A program made the position numbers and the translations under genes. From a virus (lineage: Duplodnaviria > Heunggongvirae > Uroviricota > Caudoviricetes), in IMG/VR virus record IMGVR_UViG_3300015156_000014, positions 1 to 4,855 of that record: 4,855 nucleotides of DNA; one strand, 5' to 3'. Below are positions 1 through 4,855 of the stretch, piece after piece (the first letter of the stretch is position 1; the number at the start of each line of letters is the position of its first letter). The notes below the pieces were generated by a model, which was not told the DNA's origin, ran no database searches, and was given only the letters and a program-made list of their open reading frames with translations.

Positions 1-51
1 CGGCGACCACCGAGATCTACACTCTTTCCCTACACGACGCTCTTCCGATCT
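1..51 (+). other. Illumina TruSeq universal adapter remnant (synthetic, non-biological)
   Basis: Bases 1..51 (CGGCGACCACCGAGATCTACACTCTTTCCCTACACGACGCTCTTCCGATCT) match the 3' portion of the TruSeq universal adapter as I recall it. Bases 22..51 are the exact reverse complement of bases 4826..4855. Confidence 0.9.
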
Positions 52-1115
52 ATGACGTGTATATCAACGCGTGGTACCCGTTGAACGCTTCCGGTTCGAT
101 GGTGACTGACCAGAACCCCAACAGCCCGTTTTTCCAGGAAGCCAATAAAAAAATGAAGATTGGTGGGAAAGACTGGCATCCGTCACGCACACTGAAAATC
201 TTCAACGGCACACCGATTTATCTGGAGTTTCAGAGTTCATCGTTCGGATTCACCGGACGAAGTGTGTTTCAGCGCGTTCTTTATTCCCTGAAATCCTATA
301 TCAACACGATGGAGGCGAATGATCTCGTCAGCCAGAAGGCAGGCGTACTGGTGGCTAAAGTTGTGCAGAACGGTTCGAAACTTGACGGGATCATGGCTGC
401 CGCCACGGGACGAAAAAGGGAAAATGTCAAAGAGGCAAAAAATAAAGGTGTGCTTAGTATCGGGAAAGATGAGGACGTTACCTCGCTGAATTTACAAAAC
501 ATCGATGGCGCGCTAAATGCCGCCCGCGACAACATTATTTCCGATATTGCATCAGGTAGCGATGTTCCCGCGATTCTCATCAAGGAGGAGGCTTTCTCGA
601 ATGGTTTCGGTGAAGGAACTGAGGACTCGAAAGCTATCAGCCAGTATATCGATGGTGTACGCCAGCAGATTGAACCCGTGATGGATTATTTCGAACGCCT
701 GGTGCAGTACATCGCCTGGAACGAGGAATTTTATCAGTCGCTGAAAAATGATTACCCGGACATCATAACTGACGACTATAAAACCACGTTTTACCAGTGG
801 CGACGTGAATTTACCGCGACGTGGCAGGAGCTGGTGGAGGAGTCGCCGGACAAACGCCGGGAAAGCGACAGTAAAGTGATTCAACAGGCGATAGCACTTT
901 TCTCTGCCGTGTCGCCACAGGTTGATCCTGAAAACCGTGCCGCCGTCACTGAATGGCTGGCAAGCCTTGTTAATGTCACGCAAACCTATGGCGCAGCTCC
1001 ACTCATCATTGATGTGGACGCGCTGGCGAATTATGAACCACCGAAGCAGGAGACGCCTGATGGCAATTTCCAGCCGGGCGGTGAGGAAGAAGAAACGGAT
1101 CAGAACGCTGTATGA
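52..1115 (+). CDS. Portal-like protein, C-terminal portion (5'-truncated at the adapter junction)
   Basis: Frame is open from the window start through the adapter to the TGA at 1113..1115, so the GTG at 57 in the ORF track is not the real start. The translation is protein-like and ends in an acidic tail (PGGEEEETDQNAV). The portal call rests on position, immediately upstream of minor head, scaffold and capsid-like genes; the family assignment is inference. Confidence 0.75.
1048..1052 (+). promoter_or_regulatory. Shine-Dalgarno (AGGAG) for the CDS starting at 1060
   Basis: AGGAG lies 7 nt upstream of the ATG at 1060, inside the 3' end of the upstream CDS. Confidence 0.55.
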
Positions 1116-1893
1116 GGTTCTGACGGATGCCGTTAACTACTACGTAAATCACGGGTGGGATAGCGAAAAATCATTGCTCGAATGGTGCCGGAAACTCCGT
1201 GTAGCCGCTCAGCGAGAAACCCCTGATGATACCGTAGCCAGAAAACATCTCACCGCTATCTACAGCCGTCTTGTCATCGACGGCGGGGCATTACGGGATC
1301 AGCCTCCTGACGGCCCTAAAAAAATCACTGTTGAAAAACTGAAACCTGAGTTTCGCAAGGAACTCGACAGGCGAATTTTCGCCAGTGCCAACCTGATAAA
1401 ACTCAACCGCGAACAGGCTATCGAGAAAACCATACAGCGTTTTCAGGGGTGGGTTACGTCCATTCCCCCTGACGGGGTGAGCGAAATTGATCGCCGGGAA
1501 GTGAAGGCCGGGTTTCAGAAATCCGTGAAGGATATGGATTTTATCAGTCGTCGGGTGGCAATTGACCAGGGGCATAAGCTGGCAAGCAACGTTAAGTATC
1601 TGCTGGCTGTTCAGAGTGGAGCGATTGCTCTGCGCTGGCATTCGAACTGGCGGCGTCCGGGCTACAAATACCGACAGGACCACAAAGAGCGCGACGAGAA
1701 AATTTATCTCCTCCGCGATTCGTGGGCACTGGAGCAGGGACTGATTAAGCCCGTATATGGTTTTTATGACGAAATCACTGCTGCCGGGGAGGAGGTTTAT
1801 TGCAGTTGCGATGCTCTGCCGATCTACGCCCCTCAGAAACTACCCGACGAATTTTTAACGGAGAAGGGCAAACGTGAGTTTAACAGAACTTGA
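1060..1893 (+). CDS. Putative minor head / head-morphogenesis protein (277 aa); function uncertain
   Basis: ATG at 1060 is preceded by AGGAG with a 7-nt spacer. The tracked ORF begins at 922, but 922..1059 translates as Trp/Arg-rich junk overlapping the real C-terminus of the upstream gene, so 1060 is the likely start. The N-terminus is basic (RAVRKKKRIR). Placement between portal-like and scaffold-like genes is typical of minor head proteins. Confidence 0.7.
   Translation: MAISSRAVRKKKRIRTLYEVLTDAVNYYVNHGWDSEKSLLEWCRKLRVAAQRETPDDTVARKHLTAIYSRLVIDGGALRDQPPDGPKKITVEKLKPEFRKELDRRIFASANLIKLNREQAIEKTIQRFQGWVTSIPPDGVSEIDRREVKAGFQKSVKDMDFISRRVAIDQGHKLASNVKYLLAVQSGAIALRWHSNWRRPGYKYRQDHKERDEKIYLLRDSWALEQGLIKPVYGFYDEITAAGEEVYCSCDALPIYAPQKLPDEFLTEKGKREFNRT
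1860..1868 (+). promoter_or_regulatory. Shine-Dalgarno-like purine tract (GGAGAAGGG) for the CDS starting at 1874
   Basis: Purine-rich GGAG/AGGG motif 5-10 nt upstream of the GTG at 1874. Confidence 0.45.
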
Positions 1894-3196
1894 AGTGGCA
1901 GAACGCATCAGGGACGGAACCGTACCGTCTCCGGTGAAATTTTCCAACATGTGGCTGGTGAATTTGCGAATAACCGGAACCGGGCTTGCCTATCGCGCCG
2001 GGGAGAAAGAGCACGTCTGGCGTGATCCAAAGCTCTATCTGAATGAGGAGTTTTTAAGGCGATGCAATGGCCTTCCGGTTATCGCAAACCATCCTGATGA
2101 CGCAGTCCTGACGGAGGAGGATTTTAAATCGCGGATCGTCGGTAGTGTCATGCTGCCGTATATCCGGGGTGACGAGGTATGGGCAGTGTGCCGTGTTTAC
2201 CTTCAGAGCATTGTTGAAGAAATCACTGAGGGGGGTGTTTCGACAAGCCCGACGGTGGTGTTCAACAGCACATCAGGAAATGTGGAAGTACAGGAAGGTG
2301 ACACCAATTTTTTAATTGAAGGTGTTCCTTTCCTTGTTGATCACATCGCCCTGGTGACGAAAGCCCACGGCTCGCTGGGCGTGTGGGATAAAGACCGGAT
2401 CCCCGCAGGGGTTGAAGTGACAAACACAGGTGAAATCGAGATGAAAAAAGAAGAACTCCAGGCCCTGTTACAGGGGGTGGTGAACGATGCCCTGAGCGGC
2501 ATTAATCAGAAAATCGATGGAGTAGTCACGCGCATGGACTCACTGGAACAGCGGGACAAAGCGCGGGCGGATGCCGAAGAGCAGGCGAAAAAAGAGGACG
2601 AAGAAAAGGCCAAAGCCGATGAAGCCGCAGAGGAACAGCGTAAAGCTGATGAAGATGCGACAAAGAAGGCGGAAGAAAAAGCCAAAGCTGACGAGGCAGC
2701 AGACAAAGATGCTGAGGAGAAAGCAAAGGCTGATTCCGAAGCAGAAGAACAGCGTAAGGCCGACGAGGAGGCAGAAAAAGAACGCAATGATTCTGCCCTG
2801 GCAGAAGCACAGGCAAAAGCCGACTCCGCATTCAGTGCCTGCGGTAAAAACGCGCCAGCACCGTTTTCTGGCGAAAATGCGCTGGACTACCGTAAGCGTG
2901 CGCTAATCGCTATGCAGAAACACTCTCCGGCACATAAGGACGTCAATATTCGCGCGATAGCGGATTCTGCAACGCTGGCTGTGCTTGAGGACGCAATTTT
3001 CAGTGCCGCCCGTCAGTCCATCGAAAAAGAAATGATGAGCACGCAGGGGCAACTGCATAAACGTATCCGCAGCGACGAAGCCGGACGTCGCATTACTGAA
3101 TATCAGGGTGATCCGAACGTCTGGTTGGGTGCCTTCAAAATTCCGGGGCGTCGTCTGGCAAAAATTAACACTCAAGGGAGCCTGAACAATGGCTGA
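1874..3196 (+). CDS. Putative scaffolding protein, possibly a prohead protease-scaffold fusion (440 aa)
   Basis: GTG start at 1874 with an upstream purine-rich SD; it overlaps the upstream stop by 20 nt. A globular N-terminal domain of about 220 aa is followed by a strongly acidic, Lys/Glu/Ala-rich repeat region (EEKAKADEAA x3, EEQRKADE x2) typical of scaffold coiled coils. The stop at 3194..3196 overlaps the next start (ATGGCTGA). Confidence 0.8.
   Translation: MSLTELEVAERIRDGTVPSPVKFSNMWLVNLRITGTGLAYRAGEKEHVWRDPKLYLNEEFLRRCNGLPVIANHPDDAVLTEEDFKSRIVGSVMLPYIRGDEVWAVCRVYLQSIVEEITEGGVSTSPTVVFNSTSGNVEVQEGDTNFLIEGVPFLVDHIALVTKAHGSLGVWDKDRIPAGVEVTNTGEIEMKKEELQALLQGVVNDALSGINQKIDGVVTRMDSLEQRDKARADAEEQAKKEDEEKAKADEAAEEQRKADEDATKKAEEKAKADEAADKDAEEKAKADSEAEEQRKADEEAEKERNDSALAEAQAKADSAFSACGKNAPAPFSGENALDYRKRALIAMQKHSPAHKDVNIRAIADSATLAVLEDAIFSAARQSIEKEMMSTQGQLHKRIRSDEAGRRITEYQGDPNVWLGAFKIPGRRLAKINTQGSLNNG
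2599..2769 (+). repeat. Intragenic imperfect tandem repeats encoding EEKAKAD(E/S)(A/E)A and EEQRKADE(D/E)A units
   Basis: Three copies of about 30 nt at 2599..2628, 2672..2701 and 2714..2743 (gaagaaaaggccaaagccgatgaagccgca and variants). Two copies of about 26 nt at 2629..2654 and 2744..2769 (gaggaacagcgtaaagctgatgaaga and variant). All are in the coding frame of the 1874..3196 CDS. Confidence 0.75.
3174..3180 (+). promoter_or_regulatory. Shine-Dalgarno (AAGGGAG) for the CDS starting at 3189
   Basis: AAGGGAG lies 8 nt upstream of the ATG at 3189. Confidence 0.55.
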
Positions 3197-3806
3197 TATT
3201 AACTTTCATCCGTTTAAAAACCGTGGAGCATTTGGTGGCCTTTTTAACGTCGAATCCCGTGGGCTGATGCAGGGGGATGCGCAGGATGATCCGGCAATTC
3301 GTCTGCAACTTTGCTCCGGTCGACTGGACAGCAAAATCACTGATCCGGTATGGGGTGGCGTTGGAGTTATGGAGTGCATTGCTCCCGCGAAAGACAGCGT
3401 TAACGGCGCGGTAATTAAGCAGGCTACACAAAACGCATGTAACGCCTTTACGGTCTTTAATCAGGCATTTCATGGTATTACCACGCCGGATAATCCGGTG
3501 CCGTTATATCTCGCGGGTGGCTTTGTTCACTATTACCGCGTTGGCTCAGGCGCCCGCATTCCTCTCCCGGTCAGTGCAGAAGTTGTTGCGTTGGCTGATG
3601 GCAATAACACCGTTGCTGCCAGTGGCTTTGTGTGGGACCTGACGAAAAACATGGTTGATGTTTATTCGGGATCACCCGGCGCTAATCCGAAAGTGGATAT
3701 TAAGCTGCTGATGGTTTCAGTTGACGGAAACCTGACGGTGAAAAAAGAGGATGGCGGTAACGTTGTCTGGGAAATCGGCAAACCGTGCGGCCTGTTTTTA
3801 ATTTAA
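3189..3806 (+). CDS. Hypothetical phage structural protein (205 aa); possible head decoration or accessory protein
   Basis: ATG with a good SD, translationally coupled to both neighbours. Composition is Gly/Val/Asn/Ala-rich and beta-like. It sits between the scaffold-like and capsid-like genes, the position lambda gene D occupies between Nu3 and E. No recognisable motif; function is inference only. Confidence 0.75.
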   Translation: MADINFHPFKNRGAFGGLFNVESRGLMQGDAQDDPAIRLQLCSGRLDSKITDPVWGGVGVMECIAPAKDSVNGAVIKQATQNACNAFTVFNQAFHGITTPDNPVPLYLAGGFVHYYRVGSGARIPLPVSAEVVALADGNNTVAASGFVWDLTKNMVDVYSGSPGANPKVDIKLLMVSVDGNLTVKKEDGGNVVWEIGKPCGLFLI

Positions 3807-3811
3807 GGGGA
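3805..3811 (+). promoter_or_regulatory. Shine-Dalgarno (AAGGGGA) for the CDS starting at 3821
   Basis: AAGGGGA lies 9 nt upstream of the ATG at 3821, in the 14-nt intergenic gap. Confidence 0.55.
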
Positions 3812-3820
3812 TATTAATTA

Positions 3821-4825
3821 ATGAGTGCATTTACTCCTGCGACTACTATTGTGTCGCCGTCAATGGTGCTGCCGGAAATGATCGTGCAACAGAGCATGGC
3901 TTCCGGTGCGTTTGAAGTCCTGGCTGGCGGTGCTCCAGCGGTAAAAATTAGTTCCAGTGATTTGATGGTCTATCAGAAATATCTGCGCATGACCTCGCAG
4001 GCGCAGGTCGGCCAGTCTCTGCCGGGCCAGTTACCGTCTTCCAGTATCTCTGGCGGCTATGACGGGATGATGACTTACCGAATTTCTTCCCGCTCGCAAT
4101 ACAGCTATCTCGATACTGATGCAGCAGATCGCTGGGGCTATTCTCTGATTGAAGGCCTGCGCCTGGCTAACCGTCAGGGACACGCTCAAATGTTGCGTAA
4201 TATGCTGCTGTATGGCGTGAATGCAGCTAATAACGAGGGGATCACCAACTCCCCGAACGCAGTGACGCTGAATCTGGGCAACGACAGCAAAGGGAATGAT
4301 TCATATACCACCTGGGATTCCGGTGAGATGGCTAAATTTATGCTTGGCCTGATTGCTGACCAGAAAACCCGCATGTTGCTGCTGGGACAGCCATTAACGA
4401 CTGTTATTCTAAGCCCACAGCGATTCATGAAGGCGCTGGAGTGGACAGGAATTGTTGAGCTGACCAGTTACCAGCGTCCTGGTGGTGGTACCGGAACGGT
4501 GGGAACGATGGTTAAAGACGTCGCCGATAAGGCGACAGGTGATGACATCATTTTCTGCCAGGACGACACGCTGATTGGTAAAGGCGCTGGTGGTAATGAC
4601 CTGATCATCGTTACGAACCCGACGATTGAGGTTCCGGAAGCGCGTCACACCATTAACACCAATATTTTCTCCACGCTGGTACCTAACCAGCAGGCCGTCA
4701 ACGTGATGTTCTGTGATATGGCAGCGCCGACGGAAATTCCGTCCCCTATGCCGGATGGCGGCATGACCACGTTGTATACCATGCGTGCGACGCCGGGCTG
4801 GAACTTCCGCCCTGAGGGGATCACC
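3821..4825 (+). CDS. Putative major capsid protein, N-terminal 335 aa (3'-truncated at the adapter junction)
   Basis: Hand translation from the ATG at 3821 (MSAFTPATTIVSPSMVLPEMIVQQSMASGAFEVLAGG...) gives an uninterrupted frame to the end of the genuine insert and on through the adapter. It is not in the supplied ORF track because there is no in-window stop. Strong SD upstream. Its size and position directly after the scaffold-like gene suggest major capsid; the family is unverified. Confidence 0.75.
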
Positions 4826-4855
4826 AGATCGGAAGAGCGTCGTGTAGGGAAAGAG
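4826..4855 (+). other. Illumina TruSeq adapter read-through (AGATCGGAAGAGCGTCGTGTAGGGAAAGAG), synthetic
   Basis: Exact match to the canonical adapter read-through sequence as I recall it; reverse complement of bases 22..51. Confidence 0.9.

What the first reader, a model, noticed from the sequence alone, without database searches (positions are those of the whole stretch)
1..4855. Window is bounded by inverted Illumina adapter sequences: a synthetic 30-bp terminal inverted repeat
Bases 22..51 and 4826..4855 are perfect reverse complements of each other and correspond to TruSeq adapter sequence. A naive scan would score this as the terminal inverted repeats of a transposon or as the true ends of a linear element. 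It instead marks the sequence as a single adapter-ligated fragment or an untrimmed contig. Both terminal genes are cut by library construction, and nothing can be concluded about flanking context.
Basis: partly seen in the sequence, partly recalled or inferred. Interest (0 to 1): 0.5.

Follow-up and report, generated by a model that had tools for sequence, protein, structure and literature searches.

The report
Illumina adapter tails on a contig
The 30-base "terminal inverted repeat" is leftover Illumina TruSeq sequencing adapter stuck on both ends of an assembled piece of an ordinary E. coli prophage, so it is a laboratory artefact and not a biological feature.

Summary
Bases 22-51 and 4826-4855 are a perfect 30-nt inverted repeat. 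Bases 1-51 equal bases 8-58 of the TruSeq Universal Adapter, and 4826-4855 equal the first 30 bases of its reverse complement.

The insert (52-4825) is the head-gene module of a Rac-like E. coli prophage. It matches an independent NCBI assembly at 4773 of 4774 bases, and that assembly runs straight through both junctions. Similarity stops exactly at the adapter's T overhang (51) and the A-tail (4826). These points lie inside a portal gene (first 373 nt missing) and a capsid gene (last 24 nt missing).

A single TruSeq library molecule would read P5...P7. The window is therefore most likely an untrimmed assembled contig, not one ligated fragment.

The artefact is common and already published. 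At least 119 IMG/VR contigs carry the same adapter, and 105 of 122 occurrences are inward-facing end tails. Flanking context can still be inferred from near-identical genomes.

Interest is low. Trim 1-51 and 4826-4855.

The parts
1..51 (+). Illumina TruSeq Universal Adapter, bases 8-58 of 58. Bases 1-21 are the P5 flow-cell part, 22-51 are the read-1 primer site, and T51 is the ligation T overhang. Synthetic, not biological.
   Evidence: Exact 51/51 match. Similarity to genomes stops at 51/52.
22..51 (+). Left arm of the 30-nt perfect inverted repeat (part of the adapter).
4826..4855 (+). Right arm of the inverted repeat. It is the first 30 bases of the reverse complement of the same Universal Adapter (the 'read 2' read-through string). 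A4826 is the A-tail.
   Evidence: Exact 30/30 match. Similarity to genomes stops at 4825/4826.
52..4825 (+). Genuine insert: the head-morphogenesis module of a Rac-like E. coli prophage, colinear with relatives and not chimeric.
   Evidence: 97.4% identity over 100% of its length to E. coli chromosomes; 87 of 5426 complete genomes have a match. 95.3% to phage Rac-SA53. 4773/4774 identical to NCBI assembly GCA_050755655.1.
52..1115 (+). Portal protein gene, truncated at its 5' end (first 373 nt missing).
   Evidence: phrog_146 portal, E 2e-45. The full-length homologue hits PF06381 Phage_portal_3. Gene bounds from L001 and L003.
75..75 (+). The only base that differs from the closest relative: T here, G in all six relatives compared. 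It changes Asp to Tyr and lies 24 nt from the adapter junction. Probably a sequencing error in a thinly covered contig end (inference).
1060..1893 (+). Head morphogenesis (minor head) protein gene, complete.
   Evidence: phrog_324, E 4e-37. Bounds.
1874..3196 (+). DUF2213 protein with an Ala/Glu/Lys-rich central stretch; a putative prohead protease or scaffold. Complete.
   Evidence: PF09979, E 5e-6. phrog_6216, E 6e-207, plus weak head-maturation-protease PHROGs.
3189..3806 (+). 205-aa head-module protein of unknown function, complete.
   Evidence: phrog_6268, E 4e-101. The exact protein is listed in 302 blocks of the public assembly collection.
3821..4825 (+). Major capsid protein gene, truncated at its 3' end (last 24 nt including the stop are missing). 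It reads on into the adapter in frame.
   Evidence: phrog_6671, E 1e-179, and phrog_264 major head protein, E 2e-8. Bounds. Chimeric tail ...PEGIT|RSEERRVGKE.

Best explanation
The window is a de novo assembled short-read contig whose two ends were extended into untrimmed Illumina TruSeq adapter. Each junction is the sheared, A-tailed end of a library fragment shorter than the read length. The read-2 of that fragment ran off the insert into the reverse complement of the Universal (P5) adapter, and the assembler kept that read-through as the contig tip. One such read lies on each strand at opposite ends, so the same synthetic sequence appears in inverted orientation and looks like a terminal inverted repeat. 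The DNA between the tails is an ordinary piece of a Rac-like E. coli prophage head module. Shown: adapter identity, inward orientation, the exact breakpoints, the same arm at both ends, truncated tails, and genomic continuity in independent assemblies. Inferred: read-2 read-through from short inserts, and low coverage or an adapter-induced graph break as the reason the contig stops there.
For: The ends match the Universal Adapter exactly, 51 nt and 30 nt, both pointing inward, and there are no adapter 10-mers inside the insert. The repeat is perfect against a chance expectation of 0.00. Similarity to E. coli genomes and to phage Rac-SA53 stops at exactly 51/52 and 4825/4826, where T51 and A4826 replace genomic G and C, as expected from T-overhang/A-tail ligation. 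An independent NCBI assembly is identical at 4773 of 4774 bases and continues through both junctions. Both junctions fall inside genes. Past the shared 13-nt stem, both ends carry the P5/read-2 arm and neither carries the P7 arm. The tails are 51 and 30 nt instead of 58. The artefact class recurs: at least 119 IMG/VR contigs carry the adapter core, 105 of 122 occurrences are inward-facing tails within 80 nt of a contig end, the measured tails run from 33 nt (the pattern's own length) to 76 nt, and contig L046 carries it at both ends. PMC11536531 reports the same pattern in MGnify genomes: adapters at contig ends, reverse complements at contig beginnings, next to CGTCGTGTAGGGAAAGAGTGT. The only private base lies 24 nt from a junction, which fits a thinly covered end.
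Against: No reads are available, so coverage and the read-2 origin are inferred. I could not find the source contig; the junction scans and the look-up of the chimeric protein all returned nothing. Most assemblers clip adapter tips when genomic coverage continues, so this explanation needs low coverage, a graph break, or one-sided trimming. If both adapter arms were left untrimmed, the same arm at both ends would happen by chance only about 1 time in 4.
Confidence: 0.9

Rival explanations
1. The window is one physical 4.77-kb fragment with adapters ligated at both ends, read end to end. This is the first reader's other alternative, for example a long-read or synthetic long-read sequence of an adapter-ligated library.
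For: The adapter directly abuts the insert at both ends with the T/A ligation signature. The insert is colinear and non-chimeric.
Against: By TruSeq Y-adapter chemistry (established knowledge), every strand is 5'-P5/universal...insert...P7/indexed-3'. Here the 3' end diverges from the P7 arm after 13 nt and follows the P5 arm for 30 nt. A whole molecule should carry 58-nt adapters, and these are 51 and 30 nt. Variable tail lengths of this kind are what assembled IMG/VR contigs show. 4.8 kb is roughly ten times a normal insert.
Confidence: 0.06
2. It is an assembled contig, but the two junctions are the true physical ends of a discrete 4.77-kb linear DNA in the sample (a long-range PCR amplicon, a restriction fragment or a packaged fragment), so every fragment at those ends stops at the same base.
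For: The contig stops at an adapter on both sides, which a real DNA end would produce reproducibly. Nothing here excludes it directly.
Against: With many fragments ending at the same base, the P5 and P7 arms would be equally represented, and the assembly should stall at the 13-nt fork instead of following one arm for 30-51 nt (inference). The ends lie inside the portal and capsid genes, far from the terminase genes where a packaging site would be expected. A private base 24 nt from the end suggests thin coverage rather than a pile-up.
Confidence: 0.03
3. A genuine biological terminal inverted repeat: the ends of a transposon, or of a linear plasmid or phage.
For: Only the geometry: a perfect 30-nt inverted repeat close to the window's ends.
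Against: The arms are identical to a synthetic oligonucleotide. There is no transposase or protein-primed polymerase between them, only head genes. The junctions interrupt two genes that are intact in the related loci inspected, L001-L003. The junction strings occur nowhere in three public collections. Across 5426 complete E. coli genomes the adapter appears once, as a 28-nt insertion in a fliI gene flagged as frameshifted.
Confidence: 0.005

Closest known systems
Illumina adapter contamination at contig extremities (described for MGnify genome catalogues in PMC11536531; screened for by NCBI VecScreen and FCS-adaptor)
   Same: AGATCGGAAGAG followed by the reverse-specific arm CGTCGTGTAGGGAAAGAG sits at the contig's end, and its reverse complement sits at the contig's beginning, within tens of bases of the extremity. 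At least 119 IMG/VR contigs show the same pattern, and L046 shows it at both ends.
   Different: Nothing essential. This contig has the same arm at both ends, which produces a clean 30-nt 'TIR', and the left tail reaches 21 nt into the P5 flow-cell sequence.
Transposon or insertion-sequence terminal inverted repeats
   Same: Two inverted copies of a 30-nt sequence bracket a few kilobases.
   Different: The sequence is synthetic, there is no transposase, no target-site duplication can be assessed, the 'element' cuts two genes mid-frame, and it is absent from all related genomes.
Rac-like lambdoid prophage head module (Escherichia phage Rac-SA53, KU052037.1; prophages of E. coli W and other strains)
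   Same: The insert is 95-97% identical and colinear with the genes rac41-rac45: portal, head morphogenesis, DUF2213, a 205-aa protein and the capsid gene.
   Different: Only a 4.77-kb internal piece is present, and both of its end genes are truncated by the contig boundaries.

Membership tests
Illumina TruSeq adapter contamination of an assembled contig | Terminal bases identical to a TruSeq adapter oligonucleotide | tested here: met
   51/51 and 30/30 exact matches to the Universal Adapter and its reverse complement. The string is confirmed as an adapter in the literature.
Illumina TruSeq adapter contamination of an assembled contig | The adapter lies at the contig extremity and points inward: AGATCGGAAGAG... 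at the 3' end and its reverse complement at the 5' end | tested here: met
   Positions 1-51 (+) and 4826-4855. Same geometry in 105 of 122 IMG/VR occurrences and in PMC11536531.
Illumina TruSeq adapter contamination of an assembled contig | Similarity to authentic genomes stops exactly at the adapter boundary, and those genomes continue with unrelated sequence | tested here: met
   Breakpoints at 51/52 and 4825/4826 against L001, L002 and L003-L005.
Illumina TruSeq adapter contamination of an assembled contig | Raw reads show the junctions only as 3' read-through of short inserts | not testable with these tools
   No read data, and the source contig was not found.
Single TruSeq library molecule (P5-insert-P7) | Opposite ends carry different arms: universal/P5 at the 5' end and indexed/P7 (AGATCGGAAGAGCACACGTCT...) at the 3' end | tested here: not met
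   The 3' end shares only the 13-nt stem with the P7 arm, then follows the P5 arm for 30 nt.
Single TruSeq library molecule (P5-insert-P7) | Full-length adapters at both ends | tested here: not met
   The tails are 51 and 30 nt of 58.
Transposable element with terminal inverted repeats | A transposase or other mobility gene lies between the repeats | tested here: not met
   All five genes are phage head genes.
Transposable element with terminal inverted repeats | The repeats and junctions recur in independent genomes, with the element present or absent as a unit | tested here: not met
   Junction strings are absent from three collections. The insert is an uninterrupted part of a larger prophage in the loci inspected (L001-L005), and 81 complete genomes align over at least 80% of it.
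Linear phage or plasmid genome with inverted terminal repeats | The repeats coincide with the real genome ends, not with mid-gene positions | tested here: not met
   The junctions lie 373 nt into the portal gene and 24 nt before the capsid stop codon.

The most novel reading that the evidence does not exclude
The adapter junctions could mark the true ends of a discrete ~4.77-kb linear DNA present in the sample, for example a packaged or excised sub-genomic piece of the prophage head region or a long-range amplicon, instead of arbitrary shearing points at a coverage gap.
Probability: 0.02. Interest if true: 0.2.

Novelty: not a real feature. Interest (0 to 1): 0.04.

Why it matters
It matters only for data hygiene. 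Left untrimmed, these tails would be scored as terminal inverted repeats by transposon or linear-element finders. They add false residues to two proteins (ATTEIYTLSLHDALPIY- on the portal and -RSEERRVGKE on the capsid). They can also break assemblies or link unrelated contigs to one another. The same adapter is present in at least 119 IMG/VR viral contigs and, as an internal insertion, in one RefSeq 'complete' E. coli chromosome. Any scan for TIR-bounded elements in public contigs should therefore mask adapters first.

Tried and rejected
- **Junction scans.** I scanned for both junction strings in viral contigs, genome contigs and metagenome contigs to find the source contig or an independent occurrence. 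All six scans returned nothing.
- **Chimeric protein look-up.** An exact look-up of the adapter-portal product (window 3-1115) found nothing on record.
- **Pfam.** On the five proteins, only DUF2213 scored; PHROGs was needed to name the rest.
- **NCBIfam.** It gave only sub-threshold hits, none of which explains PGAP's 'anti-CBASS Acb1' name for the portal gene.
- **Literature.** A search for the adapter-encoded peptide LSLHDALPI found no papers.
- **Tandem repeats.** Nothing relevant.
- **A near-match to the adapter stem.** Window 1814-1825 matches AGATCGGAAGAG with one mismatch. It is genuine prophage sequence, because the independent locus L003 differs from the insert only at window base 75.
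- **The k-1 idea.** I considered that the 30-nt right tail equals k-1 of a k=31 de Bruijn graph. I could not test this. In IMG/VR the measured tails run continuously from 33 nt (the pattern's own length) to 76 nt, which points to read-through length and not a fixed k-1.
- **Biological TIR and single-molecule readings.** Both rejected, for the reasons given under rival explanations.

Full report
**1. The observation**

The window begins CGGCGACCACCGAGATCTACACTCTTTCCCTACACGACGCTCTTCCGATCT and ends AGATCGGAAGAGCGTCGTGTAGGGAAAGAG. The repeat finder reports arms 22-51 and 4826-4855, 30 nt, 100% complementary. The next-best inverted repeats are 19 nt or shorter and imperfect. The 30-mer occurs exactly twice, once per strand, against 0.00 expected in 200 shuffles. 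The coordinates and the claim are correct.

**2. Identity of the terminal bases**

Exact string comparison shows two things:
- Window 1-51 equals bases 8-58 of the 58-nt TruSeq Universal Adapter. Bases 1-21 are the P5 flow-cell part and 22-51 are the read-1 primer site.
- Window 4826-4855 equals the first 30 bases of the adapter's reverse complement.

I supplied the adapter string from my own knowledge of Illumina's adapter documentation. The literature supports it. The 33-nt form AGATCGGAAGAGCGTCGTGTAGGGAAAGAGTGT appears together with the read-1 string in 557 papers. PMC9387291 quotes it as a library primer, and PMC11536531 names CGTCGTGTAGGGAAAGAGTGT as the reverse-specific Illumina adapter. 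No adapter 10-mer or 12-mer occurs inside the insert. The one near-match to the 12-nt stem, at 1814-1825 with one mismatch, is genuine prophage sequence, because the independent locus L003 differs from the insert only at window base 75.

**3. What lies between the adapters**

Bases 52-4825 match E. coli chromosomes at 97.4% identity over 100% of their length. 87 of 5426 complete genomes have a match, all on chromosomes. The insert also matches Escherichia phage Rac-SA53 at 95.3%. Annotated context in both shows a lambdoid (Rac-like) late region: holins, endolysin, terS, terL, then the five genes of the window, then head-tail and tail genes.

| Window coordinates | Gene | Evidence (unless stated) |
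|---|---|---|
| 52-1115 | Portal, 5' end missing | phrog_146, E 2e-45; full-length homologue hits PF06381 |
| 1060-1893 | Head morphogenesis | phrog_324, E 4e-37 |
| 1874-3196 | DUF2213, putative protease or scaffold | PF09979 and weak protease PHROGs |
| 3189-3806 | 205-aa protein, function unknown | phrog_6268 |
| 3821-4825 | Major capsid, 3' end missing | phrog_6671 and phrog_264 |

**4. The junctions**

Alignment with E. coli JNEC-KY178 and Rac-SA53 shows similarity starting exactly at base 52 and ending exactly at base 4825. An exact-protein look-up of the 205-aa product found it in 302 blocks of the public assembly collection, on contigs up to over 1 Mb. One of these loci, L003 (NCBI GCA_050755655.1), is identical to the insert at 4773 of 4774 bases and continues through both junctions...ctgacagaag|ATGACG on the left and ATCACC|ctgttgtct... 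on the right.

At the junctions the window has T51 and A4826 where genomes have G and C. That is the T-overhang/A-tail signature of adapter ligation (sequence; chemistry from established knowledge). The left junction lies 373 nt into the portal gene, and the right junction lies 24 nt before the end of the capsid gene. Both junction strings are absent from the viral, genome and metagenome contig collections.

**5. Contig or single fragment?**

- In TruSeq Y-adapter chemistry, every strand carries the universal (P5) adapter at its 5' end and the indexed (P7) adapter at its 3' end. One molecule would therefore end AGATCGGAAGAGCACACGTCT...
- The window's 3' end shares only the 13-nt stem with that arm. 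It then follows the P5 arm for 30 nt. Both ends thus carry the string that a read-2 produces when it runs off a short insert.
- The tails are 51 and 30 nt, not 58.
- 4.77 kb is far longer than a short-read insert.

The best reading is an assembled contig. At each end, the outermost fragment was shorter than the read length, and its read-2 read-through into adapter was kept by the assembler. The read-2 origin and the reason the contig stops there are inferred, because no reads are available. The stop could reflect a coverage gap, or a graph break at the high-copy adapter node as PMC11536531 proposes. If both arms had been left untrimmed, the same arm at both ends would occur about 1 time in 4 by chance. 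If only the read-1 adapter was trimmed, it is the expected outcome. The single private base (T75, where all six compared relatives have G; Asp to Tyr) lies 24 nt from the left junction, which fits a thinly covered and error-prone end.

**6. How ordinary this is**

Among 122 occurrences, 105 are inward-facing tails within 80 nt of a contig end and 11 more lie within 250 nt. The measured tails run from 33 nt (the pattern's own length) to 76 nt. Contig L046 (5540 nt) has the full adapter plus homopolymer at both ends, the same pseudo-TIR as here. PMC11536531 documents the same pattern in MGnify genome catalogues and shows that trimming improves contiguity. The adapter is essentially absent from finished E. 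coli genomes: the only match in 5426 genomes is a 28-nt piece inside a fliI gene flagged as frameshifted.

**7. Rival explanations**

- A biological TIR is excluded. The sequence is synthetic, no mobility gene lies between the arms, the junctions fall mid-gene, and they do not recur anywhere.
- A single ligated molecule fails two defining features: different arms at the two ends, and full-length adapters.
- A discrete 4.77-kb DNA with real ends cannot be excluded without reads but is unlikely. With many fragments ending at one base, both arms would be equally represented and the assembly should stall at the 13-nt fork.

**8. Verdict**

The feature is real in the sequence but is not biology. 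It is a known and common artefact. Bases 1-51 and 4826-4855 should be trimmed, and base 75 should be treated with suspicion. The remaining 4774 bases are an ordinary fragment of a Rac-like prophage head module, whose flanks can be read from near-identical genomes. Interest is very low. The practical lesson is to mask adapters before scanning for TIR-bounded elements.

Noticed in passing
L125 (NZ_CP123349.1 702311-702338; E. coli AREA_R485 chromosome): A 28-nt piece of the same adapter arm (agatcggaagagcgtcgtgtagggaaag) sits inside fliI of a RefSeq 'complete genome', and PGAP flags that gene as frameshifted. This looks like an internal adapter insertion that survived assembly or polishing and created a false pseudogene.
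   Followed up: partly
L126 (PP818812.1 13989-37760, 'Actinobacillus phage vB_Apl-pPE4'): This phage is deposited with Actinobacillus pleuropneumoniae as host. It is 95.7% identical to the window's insert, and 23.8 kb of it is 98.5% identical over 91% of its length to a prophage of swine E. coli strain U90. The host label looks doubtful; it may be an E. coli prophage.
   Followed up: partly
window 52-1115; L001 5628-7043: RefSeq/PGAP names the portal gene 'anti-CBASS protein Acb1 family protein', yet it hits the portal families PF06381 Phage_portal_3 and phrog_146. NCBIfam gave only a sub-threshold HI1409-family hit. The product name seems misleading for a portal protein.
   Followed up: partly
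window 75: This is the only base that differs from the closest independent assembly: T here, G in all six relatives compared. It changes GAC (Asp) to TAC (Tyr) in the portal and lies 24 nt from the adapter junction, so it is probably a read error at a thin contig end.
   Followed up: partly
window 3-53 and 4826-4855: The adapter has no stop codon in the frames of the two cut genes. A gene caller would therefore produce chimeric proteins starting ATTEIYTLSLHDALPIY-DVYINAW... and ending ...PEGIT-RSEERRVGKE. Such adapter-encoded peptides could seed spurious protein clusters. The chimeric portal product is not on record in the collection searched.
   Followed up: partly
L046 (IMGVR_UViG_3300017791_000012, 1-66 and 5473-5540): This IMG/VR 'viral genome' of 5540 nt has the complete 58-nt Universal Adapter plus a poly-T/poly-A run at both ends, which is the same pseudo-TIR. 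At least 119 IMG/VR contigs carry the adapter, and many come from sample 3300045988.
   Followed up: partly
window 2560-2800 (inside the DUF2213 gene, 1874-3196): The central part of the protein is a highly charged Ala/Glu/Lys/Asp-rich stretch (…KADEAAEEQRKADEDATKKAEEKAKADEAADKDAEEKAKAD…). It attracts weak TolA and tape-measure hits and explains the 'TolA protein' label in phage records. The Rac-SA53 homologue of this gene is 30 nt shorter.
   Followed up: no
L002 (KU052037.1) 2036-3176: In phage Rac-SA53, the heat-labile enterotoxin IIa genes (eltIIaA and eltIIaB) sit just upstream of terS, in the slot where the E. coli JNEC-KY178 prophage has ParB-like and GREB1-related genes. This looks like a cargo hot-spot next to the packaging genes, outside the window.
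   Followed up: no
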